Positions 4,164 through 47,290 of a stretch of 64,000 nucleotides of DNA are shown one piece after another; the stretch's first letter is position 1, and the number at the start of each line of letters is the position of its first letter. The stretch comes from a virus (Duplodnaviria; Caudoviricetes), in the IMG/VR virus record IMGVR_UViG_3300009873_000081, positions 39,995-103,994 of that record. One strand, written 5' to 3'. The notes under the pieces were generated by a model. That model was not told where the DNA came from. It saw nothing but the letters and a program-made list of their open reading frames with translations, and did not search any database. The position numbers and the translations under genes are program-made.

Positions 4164-5256
4164 TTTTCATCTCCTTTAGTCTTTTTTCAAAGAAATTTCT
4201 CTTATACAACTCAAAGCTAGACGGTAACTTATTACCATTAGAAAATTTGCAGTACCTATAGAACTTAATAGCTAACTCAGCTTGCTCTTTTTTAACCGTC
4301 ATTTGGCTTACTATACGCTTGAGAAAATCAGCAGCTTTTATGCCATGTAAGCTCCAAACAAATGTATTTGCTAAACGATTAAAATATAACTTTCCGCCGT
4401 TCTGCTTAGTCAATTGAAACAAATGTTTTATAGCTTCAAACTCTCGCATTTGCACAGTAACAACAAGATTATGATAAACAACCGAATTATAGTATCGTTT
4501 TGTACCGTAAATACCTATACATCCTTCGCCATCTACAATACCTGCGAGATAGGCTGAATCCTGTGGCACAGACCAATCAACATTCGGCAGATCAGTACTA
4601 CTTTTGAAATTATTAGCAAGTTTCAATTCTTTTATTGTATTCTCAAATTGATCTCGCCTACTTAGATCGTCATTAGTCACTAAGCTATTACAACGATAGA
4701 AATAGCATTCTTGATAGAAACTTATAGCAAATTCAGCCTGCTTTTTCTTAACCTTTAGAAAAGGCAAAATTCTCCTAAGAAAAACAAAAGCTTTTAAACC
4801 ATAGATATGCCAGCCGTATAGCATCCCGTTTTTTACGATTTTATTTTTTTGCTTAGATTTTTTCGTTTGTGTTAAAAACGCCAGTTGATTCACAGCACCG
4901 CTATTTGTCATTGTAACAGATACAAGCAATTGATGATATGTGGACTTTCTTACACCGAATGGCTTCTTTTTATACACGCCTATAGTGCCCTCGCTATCAA
5001 CTATACCTGCGCAGTATGCAGCATCGCTATCTGACATAGCGAACTTACTTTCGATATTTTCAACTTGTTTGCTTCTTAACTCAATTTTCTTTCGAGGCCT
5101 GTTTCTTATTCTTGATGCCTTTTTATCTGCATCGCAGCATAATCTGCATCTTCCTGTTCTACCATCAGAGTTCCTCTTATCAGGATAAAACTCTGTAAAG
5201 TTTTTACTAATTTTACAAAAATTACAAACTTTTGACATAGGCATACAACTATTCAA
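4132..5256 (-). CDS. Double-motif LAGLIDADG homing endonuclease with N-terminal Cys-rich zinc-finger-like region
   Basis: AYCAGIVDSEGTIG and AYLAGIVDGEGCIG motifs, each followed by KKxQAE.AI.FY; AT-rich relative to flanks. Confidence 0.9.
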   Translation of the reverse strand: MNSCMPMSKVCNFCKISKNFTEFYPDKRNSDGRTGRCRLCCDADKKASRIRNRPRKKIELRSKQVENIESKFAMSDSDAAYCAGIVDSEGTIGVYKKKPFGVRKSTYHQLLVSVTMTNSGAVNQLAFLTQTKKSKQKNKIVKNGMLYGWHIYGLKAFVFLRRILPFLKVKKKQAEFAISFYQECYFYRCNSLVTNDDLSRRDQFENTIKELKLANNFKSSTDLPNVDWSVPQDSAYLAGIVDGEGCIGIYGTKRYYNSVVYHNLVVTVQMREFEAIKHLFQLTKQNGGKLYFNRLANTFVWSLHGIKAADFLKRIVSQMTVKKEQAELAIKFYRYCKFSNGNKLPSSFELYKRNFFEKRLKEMKSAKEEIAIKI

Positions 5257-17456: not shown

Positions 17457-17659
17457 GGCCGGTTAGAGAGAAGGAATATCGGCGTCAAACGGCGGCGCGT
17501 TACAGCCTGAGAATTTGCGGATGAACCGAAAGGACAAATGAAAGTCCGAGGCCTGTGGAATTCAGGCCAGTCTAAAAATGGATTGTAGGGAATCGCGTTT
17601 ATATCAGGCTTAACCAAGTTAAAAAACTTGGAACACGGGTTCGAGTCCTGTACCGGCCA
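17457..17659 (+). ncRNA. tRNA-like RNA with an enlarged central domain
   Basis: Acceptor stem GGCCGGT/ACCGGCC-A, T arm ACGGG-TTCGAGT-CCTGT, long variable-arm-like hairpin, about 120-nt insert. Confidence 0.6.
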
Positions 17660-39612: not shown

Positions 39613-40233
39613 ATGGAAACGACAAAACCAAATTTCGCTAATGGCCTGGTTATCGCTTATGTGACGAGCTTTGAGTTCGGACTGCCACACTTGGCTGAAG
39701 TAAAGATCAAATCTGAAACAGACGCATCCTATCTTGGCGTAGAAATGCTCCAAGACGGGCTGTGCAATCTTGGCCTCTTTTACCGAGTATCAAAACGCTT
39801 GTCTAAAAACGATCGGCATGCAAAGGTTTTTTCAACTGCTAAAGCTGCGCTTGATTATCTTTATGGACAAACGCTGGAAGTTGCAAAAGCAGCCGACGAA
39901 CAAATGCAGCTTGTTAAGCTTGCAATGGAGCAAGCTAAAAATTTGTAAGGATGTGCAGGAATGAACAAAGCGTCAATCAAATCAAAAGATATTTATTTTG
40001 CAATTATTGGCAATCATACTAAAGAAGTAACCGGTGTTTGCACAGGTGAATCCTTGCTTGATGTGTGCAAGGAGGATCATTGTCCGGATTTTGTCGAGAT
40101 TACTAAAGAGCAGTTTGATGATTTTGGTGACAATGGTATTGTGCTATCAGAAAATTTGAAAAGGTATACATCTAAAATTGTAATGAGAGTTAAATTGACA
40201 CCGATACGAGCAAGTCGCCCAAAGCATACGTGA
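39613..40233 (+). other. Two hypothetical CDSs (39613-39948, 39961-40233)
   Basis: Follow the promoter at 39578. Confidence 0.55.
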
Positions 40234-40268
40234 TTGCCAAAGCAAGAGAAACCAAAAGGAGAATTAAA

Positions 40269-40964
40269 ATGTTGACCAAAGACGACTTTATTTTTATCGA
40301 GGGCGGCACTTTTCAAATGGGCAGCCCTGAAACCGAGATTGATCGCTTTAGTGACGAGACTTTGCACCAAGTCACGGTTGCCGATTTTTACCTCGGCAAA
40401 ACGCCCGTCACCCAAAAACAATGGCGCGAGATCATGGGCGGCAATCCCTCCCATTTTAAAAATTGCGATGATTGCCCGGTTGAAACCGTAAGCTGGTACG
40501 AGGCGCAGGCCTTCATTGATAAGCTGAATACAAAAACCGGCATGAAATTCCGCTTGCCGACTGAAGCCGAATGGGAATACGCCGCGCGTGGCGGGCGTAA
40601 ATCTACCGCCTCAAATTTGTATGCCGGCAGCAACAATTTGGATGAAGTGGGATGGTATGATAAAAATTCAAACGGCAAGACTCATCCGGTTGCCGCAAAA
40701 AAGCCGAATGAATTGGGCCTGTACGACATGAGCAGCAATGTTTATGAGTGGTGTCAGGATTGGTATGACGAAAAATATTATGGTGAATGCCAAAAGAAAG
40801 GAACGGTGGAAAATCCTACGGGGCCGGAAAGCGGTTCGCGCCGGGTGGTGCGCGGCGGCAGTTGGTACTACGACGCGCGGTATTGCCGCTCCGCTTATCG
40901 CAACAGGATCAATCCTGCCTACTGCGGCGTCAACATTGGCTTCCGCCTGGTGTTCGTCCCGTAG
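40269..40964 (+). CDS. Formylglycine-generating enzyme (FGE-sulfatase, C-type lectin fold) domain protein
   Basis: GGTFQMGS, PVTQ, RLPTEAEWEYAARGG, PNELGLYDM, RVVRGGSW, IGFRL. Confidence 0.93.
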   Translation: MLTKDDFIFIEGGTFQMGSPETEIDRFSDETLHQVTVADFYLGKTPVTQKQWREIMGGNPSHFKNCDDCPVETVSWYEAQAFIDKLNTKTGMKFRLPTEAEWEYAARGGRKSTASNLYAGSNNLDEVGWYDKNSNGKTHPVAAKKPNELGLYDMSSNVYEWCQDWYDEKYYGECQKKGTVENPTGPESGSRRVVRGGSWYYDARYCRSAYRNRINPAYCGVNIGFRLVFVP

Positions 40965-41055: not shown

Positions 41056-41358
41056 ATGAACGATCTTATTCTTGCAAACCAGCCTGAGACCATTGTACAG
41101 GCTGTCGATCCTACCCAAGCTCGAAACGTGCTACACTTGACGCTTACTCCTGAATTGGGTGGTGATAGAACGTTTAACTTTGCAGACTTGGACTTGGATC
41201 GAGGTATTGAATCTACTCAAGAGCAAGTTTTCAATGCGCTCGACCGAGCTTTATCAGATGATGGCATTCGATTACCGCGAGGCAGCTATGTTGTTCAGCC
41301 TAATGCTACCTCTAACAGTCTGTCGGTTTTTCCAAAATCTGGATTTGGTAACATCTAA
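41056..41358 (+). CDS. Ubiquitin-like (beta-grasp) protein candidate
   Basis: 100 aa with a beta-beta-alpha-beta-beta pattern, ending VFPKSGFG-NI; shares an operon with E1 and JAB genes. Confidence 0.55.
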   Translation: MNDLILANQPETIVQAVDPTQARNVLHLTLTPELGGDRTFNFADLDLDRGIESTQEQVFNALDRALSDDGIRLPRGSYVVQPNATSNSLSVFPKSGFGNI

Positions 41359-41389
41359 CTTTTTCACAAACTTGAGTTAAGGAGAACTT

Positions 41390-42916
41390 GTGGATAATCT
41401 CAACACACTGCCTGAGCAAACCGATCAGCAACGTCTTGTCGCTTACAAGGCGATCATAGCCGCCTGCACACATACTTTCAGTAAAAACAAGCTGCAAGTA
41501 GACAAGATGAAAGACGCGCTCAGGGCTTTTTATCCGCTGGCTAAGACCGATCCGCTCTTTGCTTGCAAGTTAGCAGCTTGGAGCGCTTCGGACAAGAATG
41601 AGTCACGTGATCTGAAGCTGATTAGTATTTACACGAATAGCCTGTCAGACGCCGATGGAAGTTTATTCACTATTGGCGGTACGATCCGTAAGCCCAACTT
41701 ACGGCAGGTCTCGGCAGCGCTCTTATCGAGCTTGAATCCCAAAGAACTCTTTCGCTTGGCTTATCTTCGTAAGCTCAAGTGGTCGCCCAACGGCCAGATC
41801 GAAGCGCAGCATTTTCCCAACAGCTTGCGGACAGCGATCCGGCAATATTTGGAGTCGTTGCCTGCCTCGGCACTTAAAGCTCATGTTAAAGCCGGCTTCT
41901 CGCGGCATTTGATCTCGACGTTTCGATTGGTTCATGCACAGCCTACAGCACAACAAGCTATAATCTTGCGCTGGCAACAGCAGGAAAAACGCGGTCTGAA
42001 TGTCGAAGTTGCAGCAGCAGAGAATCCGTTTAAAGGCTTGTCCGACAAGAAGATTGCCCAAAAGATCGTAAACGAAAAATTCAAGTTTCGCCAGGCGCTG
42101 TCGCTGCTCGAAAAAGAGCCAAACTTAACTGTCTTGGAAGCTTTGCTTGAAGTTGGCAGTCCGAACGAGCTTTTGGTACAAACCAGCCTGTTCGACAAGG
42201 GCGGCCTTCTGGCTGTACCTGAGCTTGCTGAGAAGTTCTATGCCAAGCTTGCTCAAGCTAAAAGCGCTGACCGTCTCGATACGATCAAATTTGAGACGAC
42301 CGAGGGGGTGAAAGAAAGACTGGCTGAGTCTCGTGCCAAGAGTCGGCAGGCTCAGTTCGGGCAGTTGGATGGTGAGCTTTGGATGGATGTTGACAAATCA
42401 GGCTCGATGAAAATTGCTATTGATCAGGCCAAAGAAAGTGCCGCTACGGTTTGCGAAATTGTCGGCGCTGAAAACTTCTTTTGGGGCTTGATCGGCTCAG
42501 GCGGTACAGTACTGACTGATAAGCCGACAACCAAAGAAAAGGCCATGTCAATTCTCTACTTGCACCAGGCCAACGATAGTAATACCGACTGCTTCGCCAA
42601 TCTGCGTGGTGCGATGCAAAAACGGAATATCAAATACTGGATGATCCTGACTGACGGTGGACATAATCTCGGCTCAACCGACTTGTCAAAGATGAAAAAA
42701 CCGGATGCGGCCATTATTGTCAAGCTTGGCAATTACACGCATGACCTGGAAGGCCACTTGCAGAAAAATAAAATTCCGTTTGCGGCGCATGATCCGAGCA
42801 TTTTGAAATCCAGCAATCTGGTTGTGCAAAGCCTCAAAGCGATTTTGAAGGGCGAGACGGCGATCATCGAAGAAATAATGTCAACAAATTTGGCGCGTTA
42901 CGGAGTCAATCTGTGA
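41390..42916 (+). CDS. Ro60/Rsr-like TROVE plus vWA protein
   Basis: Helical N-terminal region with DPLFACKLAAW...RD; MIDAS DKSGSM and ILTDG; adjacent Y-RNA-like array. Confidence 0.7.
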   Translation: MDNLNTLPEQTDQQRLVAYKAIIAACTHTFSKNKLQVDKMKDALRAFYPLAKTDPLFACKLAAWSASDKNESRDLKLISIYTNSLSDADGSLFTIGGTIRKPNLRQVSAALLSSLNPKELFRLAYLRKLKWSPNGQIEAQHFPNSLRTAIRQYLESLPASALKAHVKAGFSRHLISTFRLVHAQPTAQQAIILRWQQQEKRGLNVEVAAAENPFKGLSDKKIAQKIVNEKFKFRQALSLLEKEPNLTVLEALLEVGSPNELLVQTSLFDKGGLLAVPELAEKFYAKLAQAKSADRLDTIKFETTEGVKERLAESRAKSRQAQFGQLDGELWMDVDKSGSMKIAIDQAKESAATVCEIVGAENFFWGLIGSGGTVLTDKPTTKEKAMSILYLHQANDSNTDCFANLRGAMQKRNIKYWMILTDGGHNLGSTDLSKMKKPDAAIIVKLGNYTHDLEGHLQKNKIPFAAHDPSILKSSNLVVQSLKAILKGETAIIEEIMSTNLARYGVNL

Positions 42917-43674
42917 GCCACAGTAGAATTAAGCTTTGTCCTGTTGTAGCTGGACGAGCCTACAGCGACGAGTCAGTATTTTCTCTGAGTAAACCAGACG
43001 GCTGGCACGAAGTAGATGTGTTGAATCGAGAGTATATTCGTGCCAGCCGAATGCAGGACTTGTTGACTTACAAAGCGCCGGTCAAAGCTTACTTCTTACG
43101 TGGTCAACTGGTGCCAAAAAGCTTCGATGTTACCAAGCGTTTTGAAGTTTCGCTGAAAGAATATCTGCTTGGCAAAGACCAAACGTTTCAGGACTTCGAT
43201 GTTTTGGCTTTTTGTAAAATTCGCAACAAAGTGTTTTTAGTAAGAAAAGAAGCTTCTGACGGCGCTTTGTTCTTGCCCAAGATGAAACTGGTCAACGGCG
43301 AGAAGTTGGAAAGCGCCAAAGGGCTATCACCTGAACAAGTTTACCTTCTCGGCTGCTATGCGATGATCTTGGCCGAGCAGAAAGCCAAGTTGGAAGCTGA
43401 GAACTTGCCGAATCGAATAAAACGTGTGTTTAGCTTAACTGGTGCGAAGCTGGTTGAGTTTAAAACAGCAGCTAAAGGCTTGATCGAAATTTCGTGGCAA
43501 TATTTACAACACACATTTCTTTCAACAGTTTACGAAAAGGATTTGCGCGTTCTATCATCTGGTTTTTGTTTAGCAGGAAGTGATAGCAAACAGACTCTTG
43601 CGTCTTTGCCTTGTATAGCTAAAGAGGCTATCGAAGACGATAAGTTATATATAACTCGTCATGTAAATAGTTAG
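42913..43674 (+). CDS. E2-like conjugating enzyme candidate
   Basis: C-terminal alpha/beta domain with SSGFCLAGSD...TLASLP; sits between Ubl/Ro and JAB/E1 genes. Confidence 0.45.
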   Translation: MSHSRIKLCPVVAGRAYSDESVFSLSKPDGWHEVDVLNREYIRASRMQDLLTYKAPVKAYFLRGQLVPKSFDVTKRFEVSLKEYLLGKDQTFQDFDVLAFCKIRNKVFLVRKEASDGALFLPKMKLVNGEKLESAKGLSPEQVYLLGCYAMILAEQKAKLEAENLPNRIKRVFSLTGAKLVEFKTAAKGLIEISWQYLQHTFLSTVYEKDLRVLSSGFCLAGSDSKQTLASLPCIAKEAIEDDKLYITRHVNS

Positions 43675-43682
43675 ATAAGAAA

Positions 43683-44582
43683 ATGAAAGAAGAATGGGCA
43701 TTTATAAGAGGTTTTAAAAATAAGTACGATGTTTCTACTTTCGGTCGAGTTCGATCTATTGGGCGTATAATAACGTCTGGAAGAAGCTACAAGAATTTTA
43801 GAGCAACAAAGACATTTATAATGAAGTTGAAACTGAGAAATGACGGTTATTTGTCAGTTTCTTTATGTCGAAATGGCAGCCGTAAAAGTTATGCTGTGCA
43901 TCGTTTAGTTGCTAAAGCTTTTATTCCTAATCCGTCAAACAAATCACAAGTTAATCATAAGGATGGAGTAAGATCAAATTGTCGAGTAAATAATCTGGAA
44001 TGGTCTACTGTTTCGGAAAATCATAAACATTCCTTTGCCAAGCTAAATAGAAAGAAGCCTCAAGTTTGGCTTGGAAAAAAGGGTTTTGATAATTTTAATA
44101 GCAAAGCTGTTTTACAATTTACACTGGACAATAAGTTCGTAGCATTGCATGGTAGTGCTATGCTTGCAGCAAGTGCAGTCGGTTGTTCTTCTCATTCGCG
44201 TATTGCAAAAGTATGTCGAGACCAAAACGGAACGACATCAAGGAATCACAGATGGATATACGAGTCTGACTATTTGCAAGGTTTCGGAATAGAAGCAGAG
44301 TCGAAAAAGAAGAAGAATAAACGGTCTATTCATTATACAGGCTTTATTGCAGAACCTTTTAATAGCTTGTTTTGCTCTAAAATTTCAGCAAAGATTATAA
44401 AAAGAGGCAATCATTCTTATGCCGTGAATGAAGTTGATTGTAAGCTTTGTTTATCAAAATTAGGATCGGACAATCGCCAAACCTTAGCCAGCCTGCCAAA
44501 TGTAGTCAAGCAGGCGGTAGACGGACATAAGCTGGTTATAACTCGTCATGTTGGCGATGATAACGGAGACGATGGCGAATGA
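43683..44582 (+). CDS. NUMOD4-HNH homing endonuclease fused to a duplicated C-terminus of the upstream gene
   Basis: WAFI.GF...YDVSTFGRVRS, VHRLVAKAFIPNP...VNHKDG..N..NNLEW...EN; ends GSDNRQTLASLP...LVITRH. Confidence 0.9.
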   Translation: MKEEWAFIRGFKNKYDVSTFGRVRSIGRIITSGRSYKNFRATKTFIMKLKLRNDGYLSVSLCRNGSRKSYAVHRLVAKAFIPNPSNKSQVNHKDGVRSNCRVNNLEWSTVSENHKHSFAKLNRKKPQVWLGKKGFDNFNSKAVLQFTLDNKFVALHGSAMLAASAVGCSSHSRIAKVCRDQNGTTSRNHRWIYESDYLQGFGIEAESKKKKNKRSIHYTGFIAEPFNSLFCSKISAKIIKRGNHSYAVNEVDCKLCLSKLGSDNRQTLASLPNVVKQAVDGHKLVITRHVGDDNGDDGE

Positions 44583-44983
44583 AAGAAGTATTCCTGCTTA
44601 AATCAGCAAGAGAAGTTGTTTTTATCGACGGTACTGCAAGCTCTGTTTTAAAAAACGGAGATTTTTTTAGAATCCGAGATTTTATAAAAGAAGCTGATCG
44701 CCGGTACGGGAAAAAAGCGTACACTTTAATGTTGCATTCTCATCCCAATGGTTTTGAAAACCTGTCACAAGCCGATGTTGATACGATGATTGGCCTAAGA
44801 TTGGGACTGGACAGAAATTTCATTTGTGGTATTGTAACCGAACGGATTGTAAAATTGTTTCGAGTGAAGCTGTGGAATAAGCAAGTTTATATTCAGAATT
44901 TGGATTGGTTGGATAGAGTGGTGACTAAATTATTGCTGAGAAATCTAATCAACGAATTGAGAGACAAGTCTAACTACTTATGA
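44579..44983 (+). CDS. JAB/MPN metallopeptidase (deubiquitinase-like)
   Basis: N-terminal Glu and HSHP...LSQAD JAMM motif. Confidence 0.85.
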   Translation: MKEVFLLKSAREVVFIDGTASSVLKNGDFFRIRDFIKEADRRYGKKAYTLMLHSHPNGFENLSQADVDTMIGLRLGLDRNFICGIVTERIVKLFRVKLWNKQVYIQNLDWLDRVVTKLLLRNLINELRDKSNYL

Positions 44984-45573
44984 ACAAAACCGTAACAATT
45001 TTTGGTCTGGGTGCGATTGGCTCCAATCTTGGCTATAACTTATTCCAGGCAGAGCCACGTCTTATCATAAACGGTATTGATAAAGATATTGTCGAGCAAC
45101 GCAACCTCGGCAACCAAATCTATTCGCAGCCGTTTGTTGGCCAAAGCAAAGTCGATGCCTTTGTGGCCGAGCTTTACATGCGAACGCAGAGTATGCCGAA
45201 AGGCAAGTTTATCAAGGCCGAATTGGGCAAGGACAGATTGAGTTTAGACGGACTGTTCGTAGATGCTTTTGACAATTTCAAATCGAGAGATATTTTGCAT
45301 CAAATTGCAAAATCTCGCAATGTCGAGTCTGAAATCGTTCATCTTGGCTTTGGAGTTATCGACAAATCTTTGTTCGGCACAATCCAGTGGAATGGCAGTT
45401 TTCAAACAGGACAAACCGACGCTCCAGGGCAAGACGTATGCCAAATCCCCGATGCAACGTGGTGGATCAAGGGAGCCGTTGCGATCATGACGCTAAACGT
45501 GCTGAATTTCTTGCGCAAGGGCGAGGTAAAGAATCTGGTTATCAAACCCGATCTTTCCACCAAAAATTTATAA
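44980..45573 (+). CDS. ThiF/E1-like adenylyltransferase
   Basis: GLGAIGS, IDKDIVEQRNLGNQ, GQSKV, VDAFDN...R, Cys in QDVC. Confidence 0.9.
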   Translation: MNKTVTIFGLGAIGSNLGYNLFQAEPRLIINGIDKDIVEQRNLGNQIYSQPFVGQSKVDAFVAELYMRTQSMPKGKFIKAELGKDRLSLDGLFVDAFDNFKSRDILHQIAKSRNVESEIVHLGFGVIDKSLFGTIQWNGSFQTGQTDAPGQDVCQIPDATWWIKGAVAIMTLNVLNFLRKGEVKNLVIKPDLSTKNL

Positions 45574-45581
45574 GAAAAAGC

Positions 45582-45610
45582 TTGATTTTTAATTGTTCTT
45601 TGCTTATATT
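45582..45610 (+). promoter_or_regulatory. Promoter for the ncRNA array
   Basis: TTGATT-17-TATATT. Confidence 0.75.
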
Positions 45611-45650
45611 AGATCAGCGATAGTAATTGTTCTTTGATGATGAAAAAAGC

Positions 45651-45780
45651 GCCAGCCACGCTGATGAAGTTTGTCTACATGGATCGCCCAATTGGTAGGG
45701 CATATCACTGTTAATGATAATGTTGCGGGTTCAAGTCCCGTTCCAAATGCAGTTTGACAATATTCGCTTGTGTGGCTGGT
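45651..45780 (+). ncRNA. Y-RNA-like unit 1, containing tRNA-Asn(GUU)-like D, anticodon and T arms
   Basis: CCAGCCAC-GCTGA...CTTGT-GTGGCTGG closing stem; GCCC/GGGC D arm, TATCA-CTGTTAA-TGATA, GCGGG-TTCAAGT-CCCGT. Confidence 0.75.
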
Positions 45781-45794
45781 TTTAGATTTGAAAA

Positions 45795-45928
45795 GCCTTT
45801 TGCGCTGATGTCAAGTTTTTACACGGACTCGAAATCCGAAGCTCTCTCCCCAAAACTGTCTCAAATGATCGGGATGGTTCTGGGGAGAGCAACAAGCAGT
45901 ACAAAAACTTTACGCTTGTGCAAAAGGC
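45795..45928 (+). ncRNA. Y-RNA-like unit 2
   Basis: GCCTTTTGC-GCTGA...CTTGT-GCAAAAGGC; CGGA-CTCGAAA-TCCG anticodon-like hairpin; long CTCCCCA/TGGGGAG hairpin. Confidence 0.7.
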
Positions 45929-45941
45929 CATCTCGAAAAAA

Positions 45942-46086
45942 AGTCCTTTCACGCTGATGCAAGTAGCCTACATGGTGCTTGGGTTCGAGTCCCAACGGAA
46001 GCTTCGGCTTTTGTAGCTCAGTTGGCAGAGCAAGTGTTTTCGGAACACTGTTAAAGTGAAAGCTATTAGCCCTTGTGTGCAGGACT
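45942..46086 (+). ncRNA. Y-RNA-like unit 3 with a circularly permuted tRNA module (YrlA-like)
   Basis: Order is T arm (TTGGG-TTCGAGT-CCCAA), acceptor-like stem capped by TTCG, then D arm (TAGCTCAGTTGGCAGAGC). Confidence 0.8.
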
Positions 46087-46095
46087 CCCCGATAT

Positions 46096-46256
46096 AAGCA
46101 GTATACGCTGATACTTCAGTTTCTACACGGATAAGTCGCCGGCCTAATAAGCCGGTTATCTTCGTTCAAATCGAAGGTTTCCCGCAAAAAGAATAGATTA
46201 AAAAACGGGAAACTTGACTAATGCAGTTTGAAACTATGTGCTTGTGTATGCTGCTT
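46096..46256 (+). ncRNA. Y-RNA-like unit 4
   Basis: AAGCAGTATAC-GCTGA...CTTGT-GTATGCTGCTT; CCGGC-CTAATAA-GCCGG; T arm CTTCG-TTCAAAT-CGAAG. Confidence 0.72.
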
Positions 46257-46278
46257 TTTATTTTTAGGAGATTTTAAT

Positions 46279-46707
46279 TTGCTAATAAAGCATGGTCATC
46301 GTGCAATTTATAAAAATTGCGATGTTTGTGGTGTTCTATTTTTAGCCAGAGCAGACAGTCTAAGTAGACGAGGAGAGCGATTTTGTTCAAGAAAATGCGG
46401 TTGTAAGATTGGTGTTGCGTTGTTGTCTAAGTTAGACCGAGCAAAAGAAAAGAATGGTAATTGGAAAGGCGGTTTAAGCAAAAACCATTATCACTATAAA
46501 AAATTGCAAGTAAAACGCTATCCTGAAAAAGTAAATGCACGTGAGAGTGTTCACAGGGCAGTAAGATCGGGAAGACTAATAAAGCAACCTTGCAAAGTTT
46601 GTGGTGAGTCAAAAGTCTTTGCACATCATGTCGATTATTCCAAGCCTCTTGAAGTCGAATGGTTGTGTAGAAAACACCACCGAGAAGTTCACAATAATAG
46701 GCACTAA
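46279..46707 (+). CDS. Zinc-finger/HNH-like endonuclease
   Basis: CDVCG...FCSRKC, NGNWKGG, CKVCG...AHHVDYSKPLEVEWLC..HH; start moved to the TTG after AGGAG. Confidence 0.75.
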   Translation: MLIKHGHRAIYKNCDVCGVLFLARADSLSRRGERFCSRKCGCKIGVALLSKLDRAKEKNGNWKGGLSKNHYHYKKLQVKRYPEKVNARESVHRAVRSGRLIKQPCKVCGESKVFAHHVDYSKPLEVEWLCRKHHREVHNNRH

Positions 46708-46708
46708 A

Positions 46709-47290
46709 ATGCAAAAGGTAGGATTTAACAAAATCGACTTGCTTAAGTTTGGCAACGAAATTCAAACAGTCGGTTCGATCCTGTCTGACTCGAAGAATAT
46801 CTATCTGCTCGAATACCCTGCTGCCAGCTTTGACGGCAAAGAAGTTAAGCAGATCGTACTCTCTGAAACCGAATGGCAAACGCTGCTGAATCAACTCGAC
46901 TCCTGCCAGACCGAAGTGAGTTGGGATGGCAAGAAAGCGCTTTTTCGTAAATGCCAGCGCGTGATCGACAATTTCGTTTGCTGGAAAGTTTACAAGCGCG
47001 ACAACTACACCTGCCGTTACTGTGGACGCGACGCTGTGCCGCTGACGGTCGATCACGTTATTCTGTGGGAAGAGGGTGGCCAGTCGGTGGAAGAAAATCT
47101 TATCACCTGCTGCAAGCCCTGCAACCGTGAACGCGGCAAGATGCAGTACGATGAATGGCTAATTTCGCCTTTCTACGAAAAGTCCATGCGTAGTCTTTCG
47201 GCAGATGTTCAAGAACAGAACTTACAAGTCGTCAGCAGATTGGATTATCTCCGCACTTTGAAGGGGCCAGTGCGGAGCAAAAGAAAATGA
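46709..47290 (+). CDS. HNH endonuclease (McrA-like)
   Basis: RDNYTCRYCG...TVDHV...GG...NLITCCKPCN. Confidence 0.85.
   Translation: MQKVGFNKIDLLKFGNEIQTVGSILSDSKNIYLLEYPAASFDGKEVKQIVLSETEWQTLLNQLDSCQTEVSWDGKKALFRKCQRVIDNFVCWKVYKRDNYTCRYCGRDAVPLTVDHVILWEEGGQSVEENLITCCKPCNRERGKMQYDEWLISPFYEKSMRSLSADVQEQNLQVVSRLDYLRTLKGPVRSKRK

What the first reader, a model, noticed from the sequence alone, without database searches (positions are those of the whole stretch)
41056..46256. Phage operon coupling a Ro60/TROVE protein and Y-like RNAs to a ubiquitin-like conjugation set
Seen in sequence: contiguous, mostly overlapping genes for a 100-aa protein ending FG-NI, a helical plus vWA protein (DKSGS, TDG), a protein with SGFCL, a JAMM peptidase (HSHP-x7-S-x2-D) and a ThiF/E1 enzyme, followed by four structured RNAs. 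Established: Ro60/Rsr proteins are TROVE-vWA rings that bind Y RNAs encoded next to them, and E1/E2/JAB/Ubl sets conjugate proteins. Inference: JAB removes NI to expose Gly, E1 activates the Ubl, the SGFCL protein acts as E2, and the Ro-Y RNP supplies substrate specificity like an RNA-guided E3. This could be a counter-defence or RNA-repair-linked system. I know of no characterised phage example, though I cannot exclude earlier bioinformatic mention.
Basis: partly seen in the sequence, partly recalled or inferred. Interest (0 to 1): 0.95.

Follow-up and report, generated by a model that had tools for sequence, protein, structure and literature searches.

The report
Ro60–Y RNA cassette with ubiquitin-like module
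This phage carries a conserved gene set that ties a Ro60-type RNA-binding ring protein and its own tRNA-mimicking small RNAs to a small ubiquitin-like protein with its activating enzyme, trimming protease and a new cysteine protein, a link between RNA surveillance and protein tagging that I found in no paper I could search.

Summary
At 41056-46252 (+) lie six genes and four structured RNAs.

- **Ro60:** the model (pLDDT 90) aligns full length to Ro60 structures (Z 14-16).
- **Conservation:** local HMMs find the five core genes together in about 19 of 20 related loci, in phage contigs and bacterial chromosomes.
- **Fusion:** in seven homologues the small protein is fused in frame to Ro60, with the conserved ...AG at the junction.
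- **RNAs:** they form a Y-RNA-like family with a covarying closing helix, a CUUG motif and tRNA-like modules.

The cysteine protein models as OB-like domains plus an RWD/UBC-like domain. The match is weak (Z about 5), so "E2" is plausible but not shown. The beta-grasp fold of the small protein was not tested. The "RNA-guided E3" idea is untested.

This scan has met the same system before on other DNA (31 notes, at least 26 genomes). I found no published description.

The parts
41056..41358 (+). Small ubiquitin-like protein (100 aa). P93 is invariant, and G98 is followed by N-I.
   Evidence: The family of 17 shares ...(I/V)xPKSxAG at the C-terminus. Seven end exactly at the Gly. It is fused to Ro60 in 7 homologues. 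There are no Pfam, PHROG or NCBIfam hits. The fold was not tested.
41390..42916 (+). Divergent Ro60/TROVE helical ring plus vWA domain (508 aa). The MIDAS residues are D335, S337, S339, T399 and D422.
   Evidence: The family profile hits human and Xenopus Ro60 in the PDB at E 2e-7 and 7e-6. The AF2 model has pLDDT 89.9. Foldseek's best 12 listed matches (all with E under 0.001) are Ro60/TROVE. VIA gives Z 14.3-16.2 over 405-429 residues. The MIDAS residues are invariant in 44 homologues. The Pfam TROVE model does not match.
42913..43674 (+). Cysteine protein 'E2L' (253 aa), the candidate E2. It has an OB-like N-terminal domain, a helical hairpin, and an RWD/UBC-like C-terminal domain with invariant Cys219.
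   Evidence: The AF2 model has pLDDT 95.7. The VIA-wide C-domain matches are FANCL DRWD at Z 5.2 and 5.0, Ctf19-Mcm21 RWD at 5.0, the Cap2 E2 domain at 4.3 and BRCC45 at 4.3. The N-domain matches Mpa OB at 5.8 and RNase R at 5.0. W195, G217 and C219 are invariant in 71 sequences. The family has 703 cluster representatives.
43683..44582 (+). Inserted NUMOD4/HNH homing endonuclease (299 aa). It is not part of the core system. Its last 45 residues are the displaced native 3' end of the E2L gene.
   Evidence: Pfam and PHROG hits. Residues 255-299 are 76% identical to the C-terminus of the E2L homologue P0057. L001 has the same operon without this insert.
44579..44983 (+). JAB/JAMM metallopeptidase (134 aa) with E3, H53, H55, S63 and D66.
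   Evidence: The motif is conserved in 18 homologues. The database hits are weak: Pfam Prok-JAB E 0.18 and PADLOC JAB E 0.004.
44980..45573 (+). Minimal ThiF-type E1 (197 aa). It has GxGxxG at 9-14, D34, D36, N42, Q46, K57, D98 and R103, plus invariant Cys154.
   Evidence: Pfam ThiF scores 36.4 bits, above the cut-off. NCBIfam ThiF and MoeB models and the E1 part of PADLOC E1-E2 models also hit. Invariant residues are listed.
45653..45778 (+). Y-like RNA unit 1. It has a 9-bp closing helix, a UGA/CUU internal loop, an upper stem and an embedded tRNA-Asn(GUU)-like body at 45677-45750.
45797..45926 (+). Y-like RNA unit 2. It has the same scaffold and carries hairpin modules.
   Evidence: Folding z-score -5.7.
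45943..46085 (+). Y-like RNA unit 3, YrlA-like. Its modules run T-arm, hairpin, D-arm, anticodon-like arm.
   Evidence: Rfam YrlA scores 28.2 bits, E 1e-3, below gathering. The module order is conserved, with compensatory changes, in L001, L009 and L017.
46100..46252 (+). Y-like RNA unit 4. It has the same scaffold, three internal hairpins and a U-rich tract after the closing helix.
   Evidence: Folding z-score -4.0.

Best explanation
This is one functional cassette, carried mostly by phages and also chromosomal in some large-genome bacteria. A Ro60-like ring protein with its own Y-like, tRNA-mimicking RNAs works together with a dedicated ubiquitin-like modifier pathway.

Proposed mechanism, with the status of each step:
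1. The small protein is made with a short tail (N-I here), or in relatives as a Ubl-Ro60 fusion. The JAMM peptidase cuts after the conserved Gly (inferred).
2. The minimal ThiF-type E1 adenylates that Gly and takes it onto its invariant Cys154 (inferred from intact motifs).
3. The Ubl passes to the invariant Cys219 of the OB plus RWD/UBC-like protein, which acts as a non-canonical E2 (inferred, weakest step).
4. The Ubl is attached to Ro60 itself or to a protein held on the Ro-Y RNA particle. The JAMM peptidase can reverse this (speculative).

The evidence shows the identity of Ro60, E1 and JAB, the Y-like RNAs, and the evolutionary coupling of all parts. Any chemistry, the target and the biological role are not shown.
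For: - **Ro60 fold.** Foldseek's best 12 listed matches are all Ro60. VIA gives Z 14.3-16.2 over more than 400 residues, covering both the ring and the vWA domain. The sequence profile hits Ro60 at E 2e-7. The MIDAS residues are invariant.
- **Gene coupling.** Local HMMs find Ubl, Ro, E2L, JAB and E1 together in about 19 of 20 loci with enough flank. These include 18 IMG/VR contigs, a Logan phage contig and a bacterial contig.
- **Chromosomal copies.** The E2L family is single-copy in 40 of 201 sampled genomes of one bacterial phylum. In one of them Ro-E2L-JAB and a family E1 lie about 6.6 kb apart on one contig. A candidate Ubl reading frame sits next to the E1; the Ubl profile did not detect it.
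- **Fusion.** Seven Ro homologues of 600-616 aa are in-frame Ubl-Ro fusions with ...PNSTAG at the junction. One was checked in DNA. It has no separate Ubl gene, and E2L, JAB and E1 lie downstream.
- **Ubl C-terminus.** The Gly is conserved. It is terminal in 7 of 17 homologues and extended in the rest.
- **E1.** The nucleotide-binding and catalytic residues and a Cys are invariant.
- **JAB.** The E...HxH...S..D motif is conserved.
- **E2L.** The model is confident. The invariant Cys sits in the loop after strand 4 of an alpha-beta4-alpha domain that matches RWD, UEV and Cap2-E2 domains at Z 4.3-5.2.
- **E1-Ubl co-fold.** The tool's verdict was weak support. The score was 0.38 (runs 0.34, 0.38, 0.65) and the best of 3 controls scored 0.00. 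The mark was reached by 58 of 80 solved complexes and 2 of 110 mismatched pairs. At 0.60 or under, only 7 of those 80 reached it, and so did both mismatches. The runs agree in at least 67% of contacts and the partner pLDDT is at least 81. ThiF-family carrier complexes are solved, so a pass may reflect likeness only.
- **RNAs.** Twenty-two Y-like units in 8 loci have 9-bp closing helices with 4-6 pair types per position. Over all 25 units listed, three of them mis-registered, cognate arms pair at a mean of 8.2 of 9 positions, against 4.7 for non-cognate arms. The units lie inside or beside the cassette.
Against: - The beta-grasp fold of the small protein was not tested.
  - Its profile shows no similarity to ThiS/MoaD (hhalign probability 0.2%).
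  - It shows no similarity to any PDB chain.
- The structural matches for E2L are below the level the tool calls trustworthy (Z under 8).
  - Foldseek finds nothing for E2L in PDB or BFVD.
  - No Pfam or PDB sequence link to any E2 exists.
  - I saw no HPN motif by eye in the alignments.
- No E3, no target and no acceptor residue is known.
- The Ubl ends in a single Gly (FG or AG), not GG.
- The Pfam TROVE, Prok-JAB and Rfam YrlA models all fall below their thresholds.
Confidence: 0.6

Rival explanations
1. Sulfur-carrier pathway. The small protein is a ThiS/MoaD/TtuB/Urm1-type carrier. The E1 adenylates its C-terminal Gly, which is then thiocarboxylated, with the E2L cysteine as persulfide relay. 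The sulfur is used to thiolate tRNAs or the tRNA-like RNAs held by Ro60.
For: - The E1's best family matches are ThiF/MoeB-type adenylyltransferases.
- The E1 is minimal in size (197 aa).
- The context is rich in tRNA and tRNA-like RNAs.
- JAMM trimming of carrier tails is known from CysO/Mec and QbsE/QbsD (my own knowledge).
- Thermus TtuB serves both as sulfur carrier and as conjugated modifier (my own knowledge).
Against: - None of the genes I scanned with Pfam between the cassette genes encodes a PP-loop thiouridine synthetase, a rhodanese or a cysteine desulfurase. Gene lists for other loci show none either.
- The C-terminus is a single Gly.
- There is no profile similarity to ThiS/MoaD.
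- Ubl-Ro60 fusions and JAB genes in loci whose Ubl already ends in Gly fit a conjugation and deconjugation cycle better.
Confidence: 0.13
2. E2-less modifier system, as in archaeal SAMP/UbaA/HvJAMM1. The E1 alone activates and transfers the Ubl. The cysteine protein is not an E2 but an RNA- or Ro-binding adaptor. It uses its OB-like domains, and its Cys has another role.
For: - The N-terminal half of E2L resembles OB folds of Mpa, RNase R, eIF1A and eIF5A.
- The E2-like matches are weak, and no sequence link to E2 families exists.
Against: - The Cys is invariant in 71 diverse sequences, within a conserved G-x-C motif.
- The Cys sits where E2 and RWD-type enzymes carry their catalytic Cys in the model.
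- The C-terminal domain alone recurs in longer proteins next to ThiF and JAB-sized genes.
- The homing endonuclease targets exactly this codon region, as such elements do with essential conserved sites.
Confidence: 0.15
3. The Ubl C-terminus is joined to RNA rather than to protein. The E1-made acyl-adenylate, chemically like an aminoacyl-adenylate, is passed to a tRNA-like RNA held on Ro60.
For: This rests only on analogy and context. ThiF-family enzymes such as MccB make peptide-nucleotide links (my own knowledge). Every locus pairs the pathway with tRNA-mimic RNAs.
Against: - The Y-like units have closed terminal helices and no free CCA-type end.
- Invariant cysteines in E1 and E2L argue for a thioester relay.
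- No precedent exists.
Confidence: 0.05
4. Two unrelated modules, a phage Ro60-Y RNA locus and a Ubl operon, happen to be neighbours.
For: Phage genomes pack unrelated genes tightly. Ro60-Y RNA loci exist without Ubl genes, for example in Thermus phage phiLo (PMC12135203).
Against: - The genes co-occur in about 19 of 20 distant loci at 31-67% Ro identity.
- Ro is encoded between Ubl and E2L.
- In-frame Ubl-Ro fusions exist.
- The set is kept in bacterial chromosomes.
Confidence: 0.02

Closest known systems
Bacterial and phage Ro60 (Rsr) with Y RNAs: Salmonella/Mycobacterium YrlA (Rfam RF02553; PMC4201824), Deinococcus Rsr (PDB 2NVO), Thermus phage phiLo Ro60 with Yrl1/Yrl2 (PDB 9KOP, 9L5Y; PMC12135203)
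   Same: - A ring of helical repeats plus a vWA domain with an intact MIDAS site.
- Small RNAs encoded beside the gene, each with a long closing helix, a conserved bulge or internal loop with CUUG on the 3' strand, and a tRNA-like module.
- Unit 3 has the YrlA order of arms.
   Different: - The protein is too divergent for the Pfam TROVE model.
- The RNAs fall far below the YrlA gathering score. They share their own motif, YUACA(A/U)G(C/G), after the upper stem.
- There are four to six different units per locus.
- In some relatives the Ro-binding helix is placed as an extra arm inside a full tRNA.
- The locus always carries Ubl, E1, JAB and the cysteine protein, which no described Ro60 locus does.
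Prokaryotic Ubl-E1-E2-JAB operons (Iyer, Burroughs and Aravind 2006, PMC1779556; Bil systems; CBASS Cap2/Cap3)
   Same: - A small protein with an exposed or trimmable C-terminal Gly.
- A ThiF-type E1 with a catalytic Cys.
- A JAMM peptidase.
- A separate protein with an invariant Cys in a UBC/RWD-like domain.
   Different: - The E1 is minimal (197 aa) and not fused to an E2.
- The candidate E2 is a new family with OB-like domains. I saw no HPN motif in it by eye.
- None of the loci I inspected has a cyclase, and I recognised no effector or tail-fibre target in them.
- The pathway is welded to an RNA-binding ring protein and RNAs, and sits mostly in phage genomes rather than in defence islands.
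Ubiquitin-fusion precursors of eukaryotes (ubiquitin fused to ribosomal proteins; my own knowledge)
   Same: In seven homologues the Ubl is made as an N-terminal fusion to its partner protein. The conserved Gly is at the junction, and a dedicated peptidase gene lies nearby.
   Different: The partner is Ro60, and the peptidase is a JAMM enzyme encoded in the same cassette. Cleavage has not been shown.
Thermus TtuB/TtuC/TtuA and archaeal SAMP/UbaA/HvJAMM1 (my own knowledge)
   Same: A Ubl with a minimal MoeB/ThiF-type E1 and a JAMM peptidase, linked to tRNA biology.
   Different: Those systems have no E2-like protein and need a PP-loop thiolase, which the cassette genes I scanned do not include. 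They have no Ro60 or Y RNAs.

Membership tests
Ro60/TROVE (Rsr) | Ring of helical repeats followed by a vWA domain | tested here: met
   The AF2 model has pLDDT 89.9. Foldseek's best 12 listed matches are Ro60. VIA gives Z 14.3-16.2 with 405-429 residues aligned over residues 13-502.
Ro60/TROVE (Rsr) | MIDAS motif DxSxS...T...D in the vWA domain | tested here: met
   D335, S337, S339, T399 and D422 are invariant in 44 homologues.
Ro60/TROVE (Rsr) | Match to the curated Pfam TROVE model PF05731 | tested here: not met
   hmmscan gives no hit, and neither does a search of the whole virus record. The family profile does reach Ro60 chains in the PDB at E 2e-7, so this is a distant relative outside the curated model.
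Ro60/TROVE (Rsr) | Binds Y RNAs encoded nearby | not testable with these tools
   Y-like RNAs are adjacent in every locus examined. Binding needs an experiment.
Y RNA / YrlA (RF02553) | Rfam gathering score (69 bits) | tested here: not met
   Window unit 3 scores 28.2 bits and L009:5829-5933 scores 29.1 bits.
Y RNA / YrlA (RF02553) | Closing helix of the 5' and 3' ends, with a conserved bulge or loop and CUUG, supported by covariation | tested here: met
   Twenty-two units were scored. Cognate arms pair at a mean of 8.2 of 9 positions, against 4.7 for non-cognate arms. Positions 1-5 show 4-6 pair types.
Y RNA / YrlA (RF02553) | tRNA-like module (T-arm and D-arm) | tested here: met
   Rfam tRNA matches lie inside the units. 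The T, D and anticodon-like arms are conserved, and 12 of 21 pairs show changes on both sides.
ThiF/E1 adenylating enzymes | Pfam PF00899 above its cut-off, with GxGxxG and the catalytic Arg, Lys and Asp | tested here: met
   36.4 bits against a cut-off of 28.1. G9, G11, G14, D34, D36, N42, Q46, K57 and D98 are invariant, and R103 is nearly so.
ThiF/E1 adenylating enzymes | Catalytic cysteine for a thioester or persulfide | tested here: met
   Cys154 is invariant in 16 homologues. Its role is inferred.
JAB/JAMM peptidases | E ... HxH-x7-S-x2-D metal site | tested here: met
   E3, H53, H55, S63 and D66 are conserved in the 18-sequence alignment.
JAB/JAMM peptidases | Pfam Prok-JAB gathering score | tested here: not met
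   12.1 bits against 25. The PADLOC JAB models give E 0.004-0.04.
Ubiquitin-like beta-grasp modifiers | Beta-grasp fold | not tested
The ESM Atlas's own model is of low confidence (pLDDT 0.64), and its neighbours are uninformative.
Ubiquitin-like beta-grasp modifiers | Conserved C-terminal Gly that is exposed or exposable | tested here: met
   The Gly is nearly invariant. It is terminal in 7 of 17 homologues and extended by 1-4 or more residues in the rest. It sits at the junction in Ubl-Ro fusions.
ThiS/MoaD sulfur carriers | Profile similarity to PF02597 members | tested here: inconclusive
   hhalign of the Ubl alignment against 24 ThiS/MoaD sequences gives probability 0.2%. Beta-grasp families often lack sequence similarity, so this does not settle membership.
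E2 / UBC-RWD superfamily | UBC/RWD-like alpha-beta4-alpha fold | tested here: inconclusive
   The C-domain (residues 163-244) matches FANCL DRWD at Z 5.2 (rmsd 3.4, 79 aligned) and Ctf19-Mcm21 at Z 5.0. It matches the Cap2 E2 domain at Z 4.3 (76 aligned) and BRCC45 at Z 4.3. These values are within the tool's noise range.
E2 / UBC-RWD superfamily | Catalytic Cys in the loop after strand 4 | tested here: met
   Cys219 follows strand 212-215 in the model. It is invariant in 71 sequences.
E2 / UBC-RWD superfamily | HPN motif or a match to UQ_con / Prok-E2 models | tested here: inconclusive
   No Pfam family matches 71 members at E 0.1 or better. No E2 is hit in PDB profile searches. I saw no HPN by eye in the alignments. 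As far as I know, many non-canonical E2s also lack HPN.
CBASS Cap2/Cap3 and Bil systems | Fused E1-E2 (Cap2) with a CD-NTase, or BilABCD family membership | tested here: not met
   PADLOC E1-E2 models match only the E1 portion (best E 3.8e-6). No PADLOC model matches the Ro or E2L protein, and the Ubl gives only a weak AbiEi hit at E 0.003. No cyclase gene lies in the locus.

The most novel reading that the evidence does not exclude
The Ro60 ring and its set of interchangeable tRNA-mimic RNAs act as an RNA-programmed substrate selector for a ubiquitin-like tagging machine. Each Y-like RNA would recruit a different tRNA-binding protein, such as an anticodon nuclease, a modification enzyme or an exoribonuclease. 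The OB plus RWD-like cysteine protein would then tag that protein with the Ubl. This would be the first RNA-guided protein-modification system.
Probability: 0.2. Interest if true: 0.95.

Novelty: new variant of a known kind. Interest (0 to 1): 0.8.

Why it matters
Ro60-Y RNA particles are conserved from bacteria to humans and are a major autoantigen, yet what their vWA/MIDAS domain and their tRNA-like RNAs do is still open. Prokaryotic ubiquitin-like systems are now known as defence and counter-defence tools, but none is tied to an RNA particle.

Here comparative genomics, including in-frame Ubl-Ro60 fusions, shows that a Ro60 relative works with a dedicated Ubl, E1, peptidase and cysteine protein. 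That gives a tractable bacterial and phage model for asking two questions. How is Ro60 regulated or used as a platform? Can protein tagging be directed by RNA?

The system also adds a large new protein family (703 cluster representatives) with a probable non-canonical E2 domain, and a new family of Y-like RNAs.

Tried and rejected
- **DNA similarity:** megablast of the region against GenBank phages found no match.
- **Family libraries:** Pfam, PHROGs, NCBIfam and PADLOC gave nothing above their cut-offs or E 0.001 for the Ubl, Ro or E2L proteins.
- **PDB by sequence:** the single-sequence search with Ro found nothing. PDB profile searches with the Ubl, full E2L and the E2L C-domain gave only chance hits.
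- **E2L fold searches:** Foldseek found nothing at E 0.001 or better in PDB or BFVD. The ESM Atlas shape search was uninformative.
- **Protein atlas:** feature searches for the Ubl and the E2L C-domain were uninformative, with no alignment-backed hit. The Ubl's best scores were 0.93-0.94 to unnamed clusters, and the E2L C-domain's were under 0.8.
- **ThiS/MoaD comparison:** hhalign of the Ubl family against ThiS/MoaD gave probability 0.2%, the same as unrelated controls.
- **Prok-E2_B comparison:** collecting Prok-E2_B sequences for a profile comparison gave only 3 hits in 151 genomes, so I dropped it.
- **Promoters and terminators:** consensus sites were not above shuffled background.
- **Expression:** no RNA holder was listed. 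The only full holder is a DNA run from activated sludge that may be the source sample. I did not lay reads.
- **Generic CUUG-helix pattern search:** it had a high background (64 hits on the + strand, 55 on the - strand, about 20 in shuffles). Only the stricter, manually verified units were used.
- **Literature:** five searches found no paper linking TROVE/Ro60 with ThiF, JAB or a Ubl. The Burroughs and Aravind 2016 RNA-repair paper was not held under the PMC id I recalled for it, so earlier bioinformatic mention cannot be excluded.
- **Window RNA at 17457-17659:** I saw no Y-type motif in it.

Full report
**What is there.** The window is the 3' 64 kb of a 103,994-bp IMG/VR virus record. The one DNA run that holds the whole stretch is from activated sludge and may be the source sample. 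On the + strand, 41056-45573 holds six tightly packed genes.
- A 100-aa protein ending ...PKSGFGNI.
- A 508-aa protein with DKSGS and TDG.
- A 253-aa protein with SGFCL.
- A 299-aa NUMOD4/HNH endonuclease.
- A 134-aa protein with HSHP-x7-S-x2-D.
- A 197-aa ThiF-family protein (Pfam 36.4 bits against a cut-off of 28.1).

Four structured RNAs follow at 45653-46252.

**The 508-aa protein is a Ro60.** No curated family matches it, and the Pfam TROVE model finds nothing in the whole record. About 50 metagenomic homologues exist.
- Their profile reaches human and Xenopus Ro60 in the PDB at E 2e-7 and 7e-6. The profile's weaker, sub-threshold stretches to the Ro60 ring lie in the same order as the vWA match.
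- The AlphaFold model built from 44 sequences has pLDDT 89.9.
- Foldseek's best 12 listed PDB matches are all Ro60/TROVE structures. They include Thermus phage phiLo, human, Xenopus and Deinococcus.
- VIA-align gives Z 14.3-16.2 with 405-429 residues aligned over residues 13-502. Plain vWA domains align only about 150 residues.
- The MIDAS residues D335, S337, S339, T399 and D422 are invariant.

**The RNAs are Y-RNA-like.** Each of the four units is closed by a different 9-bp helix (5 + 5 bp in unit 3). All four share CGCUGAU(G/A) on the 5' side, (C/G)CUUGUG on the 3' side and a CUACA(U/C)GG motif after the upper stem.
- Unit 1 encloses a tRNA-Asn-like body.
- Unit 3 gives a weak YrlA match of 28 bits, below gathering.
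- A 60%-identical operon on a 97-kb contig (L001) has four equivalent units with different closing helices.
- More distant loci carry units of the form NNNNGUUC-C ... YUUACAAGC ... ACUUGAACNNNN. That is the classic bulged Ro-binding helix.
- These units lie between or beside the cassette genes. L062 has six in the 1.2-kb gap between Ro and E2L.
- Over all 25 units listed, three of them mis-registered, cognate arms form 8.2 of 9 pairs on average, against 4.7 for non-cognate arms. The 22 correctly registered units have 7-9 of 9, mostly 9. Positions 1-5 show 4-6 pair types.
- The YrlA-like unit keeps its T-arm, D-arm and anticodon-like arm in four loci. Twelve of 21 pairs change on both sides.
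- In some relatives the same helix is inserted as an extra arm into an otherwise complete tRNA, for example L003:5886-6042.

**The genes belong together.** I built local HMMs from the window's five proteins. They find Ubl, Ro, E2L, JAB and E1 in nearly every related locus that has enough flank. These loci are 18 IMG/VR contigs, L001 and the bacterial-looking L003. The order is usually the same, but variable inserts separate the genes.
- Many of the inserts are HNH homing endonucleases. Others are Band-7, LemA/TPM, a MoxR-like AAA+ protein with DUF2201, or RNase T genes.
- The strongest evidence is a set of fusions. Seven Ro homologues of 600-616 aa begin with the Ubl domain, joined at ...PNSTAG to the Ro domain.
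- I checked one fusion in DNA (L062). It has no separate Ubl gene, and E2L, JAB and E1 lie downstream.
- The E2L family is large, with 703 representatives at 50% identity.
- E2L is single-copy in 40 of 201 sampled genomes of one bacterial phylum, mostly genomes of 9-12 Mb.
- In one such genome, Ro-E2L-JAB and an E1 of this family lie about 6.6 kb apart on one contig. The frame beside that E1 ends ...RPKVPFGAC and may be a Ubl, but the Ubl profile did not detect it.

**The ubiquitin-like module.**
- *Ubl.* The small-protein family ends in a conserved ...(I/V)xPKSxAG. Seven of 17 members stop exactly at the Gly. The others add 1-4 residues or a long tail.
- *JAB.* The JAB family keeps E...HxH...S..D. 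JAB genes occur even where the Ubl already ends in Gly. That suggests deconjugation as well as trimming.
- *E1.* The E1 family keeps GxGxxG, D34, D36, N42, Q46, K57, D98, R103 and an invariant Cys154.
- *E1-Ubl co-fold.* The tool's verdict was weak support.
  - The score was 0.38 (runs 0.34, 0.38, 0.65), and the best of three controls scored 0.00.
  - The mark was reached by 58 of 80 solved complexes and 2 of 110 mismatches.
  - At 0.60 or under, only 7 of the 80 reached it, and so did both mismatches.
  - The runs agree in at least 67% of contacts, and the partner pLDDT is at least 81.
  - Because ThiF-carrier complexes are solved, the pass may reflect likeness only.
- *Untested.* I could not fold the Ubl alone, so beta-grasp remains untested. 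hhalign against ThiS/MoaD was negative.

**The cysteine protein.** Its model is very confident, with pLDDT 95.7. It has three parts.
- A beta-rich N-terminal part resembles the OB domains of Mpa (Z 5.8), RNase R, eIF1A and eIF5A.
- Two long helices follow.
- A C-terminal alpha-beta4-alpha domain carries the invariant Cys219 in the loop after the last strand.

The C-terminal domain matches RWD, UEV and E2 domains at Z 4.3-5.2. These are FANCL, Ctf19-Mcm21, Knl1, BRCC45 and the E2 domain of CBASS Cap2. The values lie inside the tool's noise range. No sequence method links the family to any E2. I therefore treat "E2" as the best guess, not a finding.

The C-terminal domain alone also occurs in longer proteins next to ThiF and JAB-sized genes.

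**Mechanism and rivals.** The most likely reading is a Ubl conjugation pathway physically and functionally tied to the Ro60-Y RNA particle. JAB trims the Ubl, E1 adenylates it and forms a thioester, and the Ubl passes to E2L Cys219. The target would be Ro60 itself or a protein brought to it by the tRNA-mimic RNAs.
- A sulfur-carrier pathway for RNA thiolation is the main rival. It lacks a thiolase, a rhodanese or a desulfurase among the genes scanned. It also fits the fusions less well.
- An E2-less pathway, with the cysteine protein as an RNA adaptor, cannot be excluded.
- Attachment of the Ubl to RNA is a remote possibility.
- Chance adjacency is excluded by the fusions and the conserved linkage.

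**Comparison with the literature.** Phage Ro60 with Y-like RNAs is known from mycobacteriophages, CcrColossus, phage G and phiLo (PMC4201824, PMC12135203). TROVE proteins in jumbo phages are mentioned as RNA-repair platforms (PMC7824862). A preprint on Asgard viruses lists a Ro60 and three ThiF genes in one virus but does not connect them (10.1101/2021.07.29.454249). Five full-text searches found no paper linking Ro60/TROVE to a Ubl, E1 or JAB. One key paper was not held under the PMC id I recalled.

This scan has noted the same system before on other DNA, in 31 notes from at least 26 genomes. Those are AI notes and not independent evidence. My own tests agree with them on the gene set, the fusions and the distribution.

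**Verdict.** This is a real, conserved and apparently undescribed coupling of two known kinds of system. Its chemistry, its target and its role in phage infection remain to be shown.

Noticed in passing
window 43560-44582: The HNH homing endonuclease sits just after the codon region for the invariant Cys of the E2L gene. The upstream gene now ends in a diverged replacement tail. The endonuclease ORF ends in frame with the displaced native tail, whose residues 255-299 are 76% identical to the homologue P0057. This looks like intron-less homing with a carried, recoded gene end.
   Followed up: partly
L007:5332-5922, L008:3189-3905, L009:11018-11623, L012:5266-5907, L015:4499-5230, L017:9311-9895, L062:10988-11581: HNH endonuclease genes are inserted between the cassette genes in many independent loci. 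The cassette is a hot spot for homing elements.
   Followed up: partly
L003:5886-6042; also L009:1617-1752, L012:4331-4469, L007:4552-4701 and 4850-4985, L020:10322-10452: These are full-length tRNA matches of 131-157 nt. In L003 the extra about 85 nt is a hairpin carrying the Ro-binding helix (ACUUGAACUC ... GGAGUUCC) and the CUACAAGCA motif at the variable-arm position. It is a tRNA-Y RNA chimera. The other listed cases were not inspected.
   Followed up: partly
window 17457-17659: A 203-nt RNA with tRNA-like ends and a large multi-hairpin insert folds well (z -4.45). I saw no Y-type motif in it, and its relation to the cassette is unknown.
   Followed up: partly
window 46228-46707 and 46601-47290: Two more endonuclease genes lie directly after the RNA array, matching phrog_2340 and Pfam HNH. 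The first ORF's annotated TTG start overlaps the 3' end of RNA unit 4, so its true start is probably later.
   Followed up: no
L007:9035-9859, L016:8936-9790, L062:5307-6518; L007:7583-8780: Band-7/SPFH genes, and a LemA plus TPM pair, recur inside or beside the cassette in several loci. They may be accessory partners.
   Followed up: no
window 40230-40964: An FGE-sulfatase-type (formylglycine-generating enzyme-like) gene lies directly upstream of the cassette (Pfam E 6e-51). This is unusual in a phage.
   Followed up: no
L023:7141-7524: In the chromosomal copy of a 10.4-Mb bacterium, the JAB protein itself ends in ...SPAAG.
   Followed up: no
L003:3843-6460: The bacterial-looking locus has an array of 11 or more tRNA genes, interleaved with Y-like units, directly upstream of the cassette. 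L015 has 19 tRNA genes around its cassette.
   Followed up: partly
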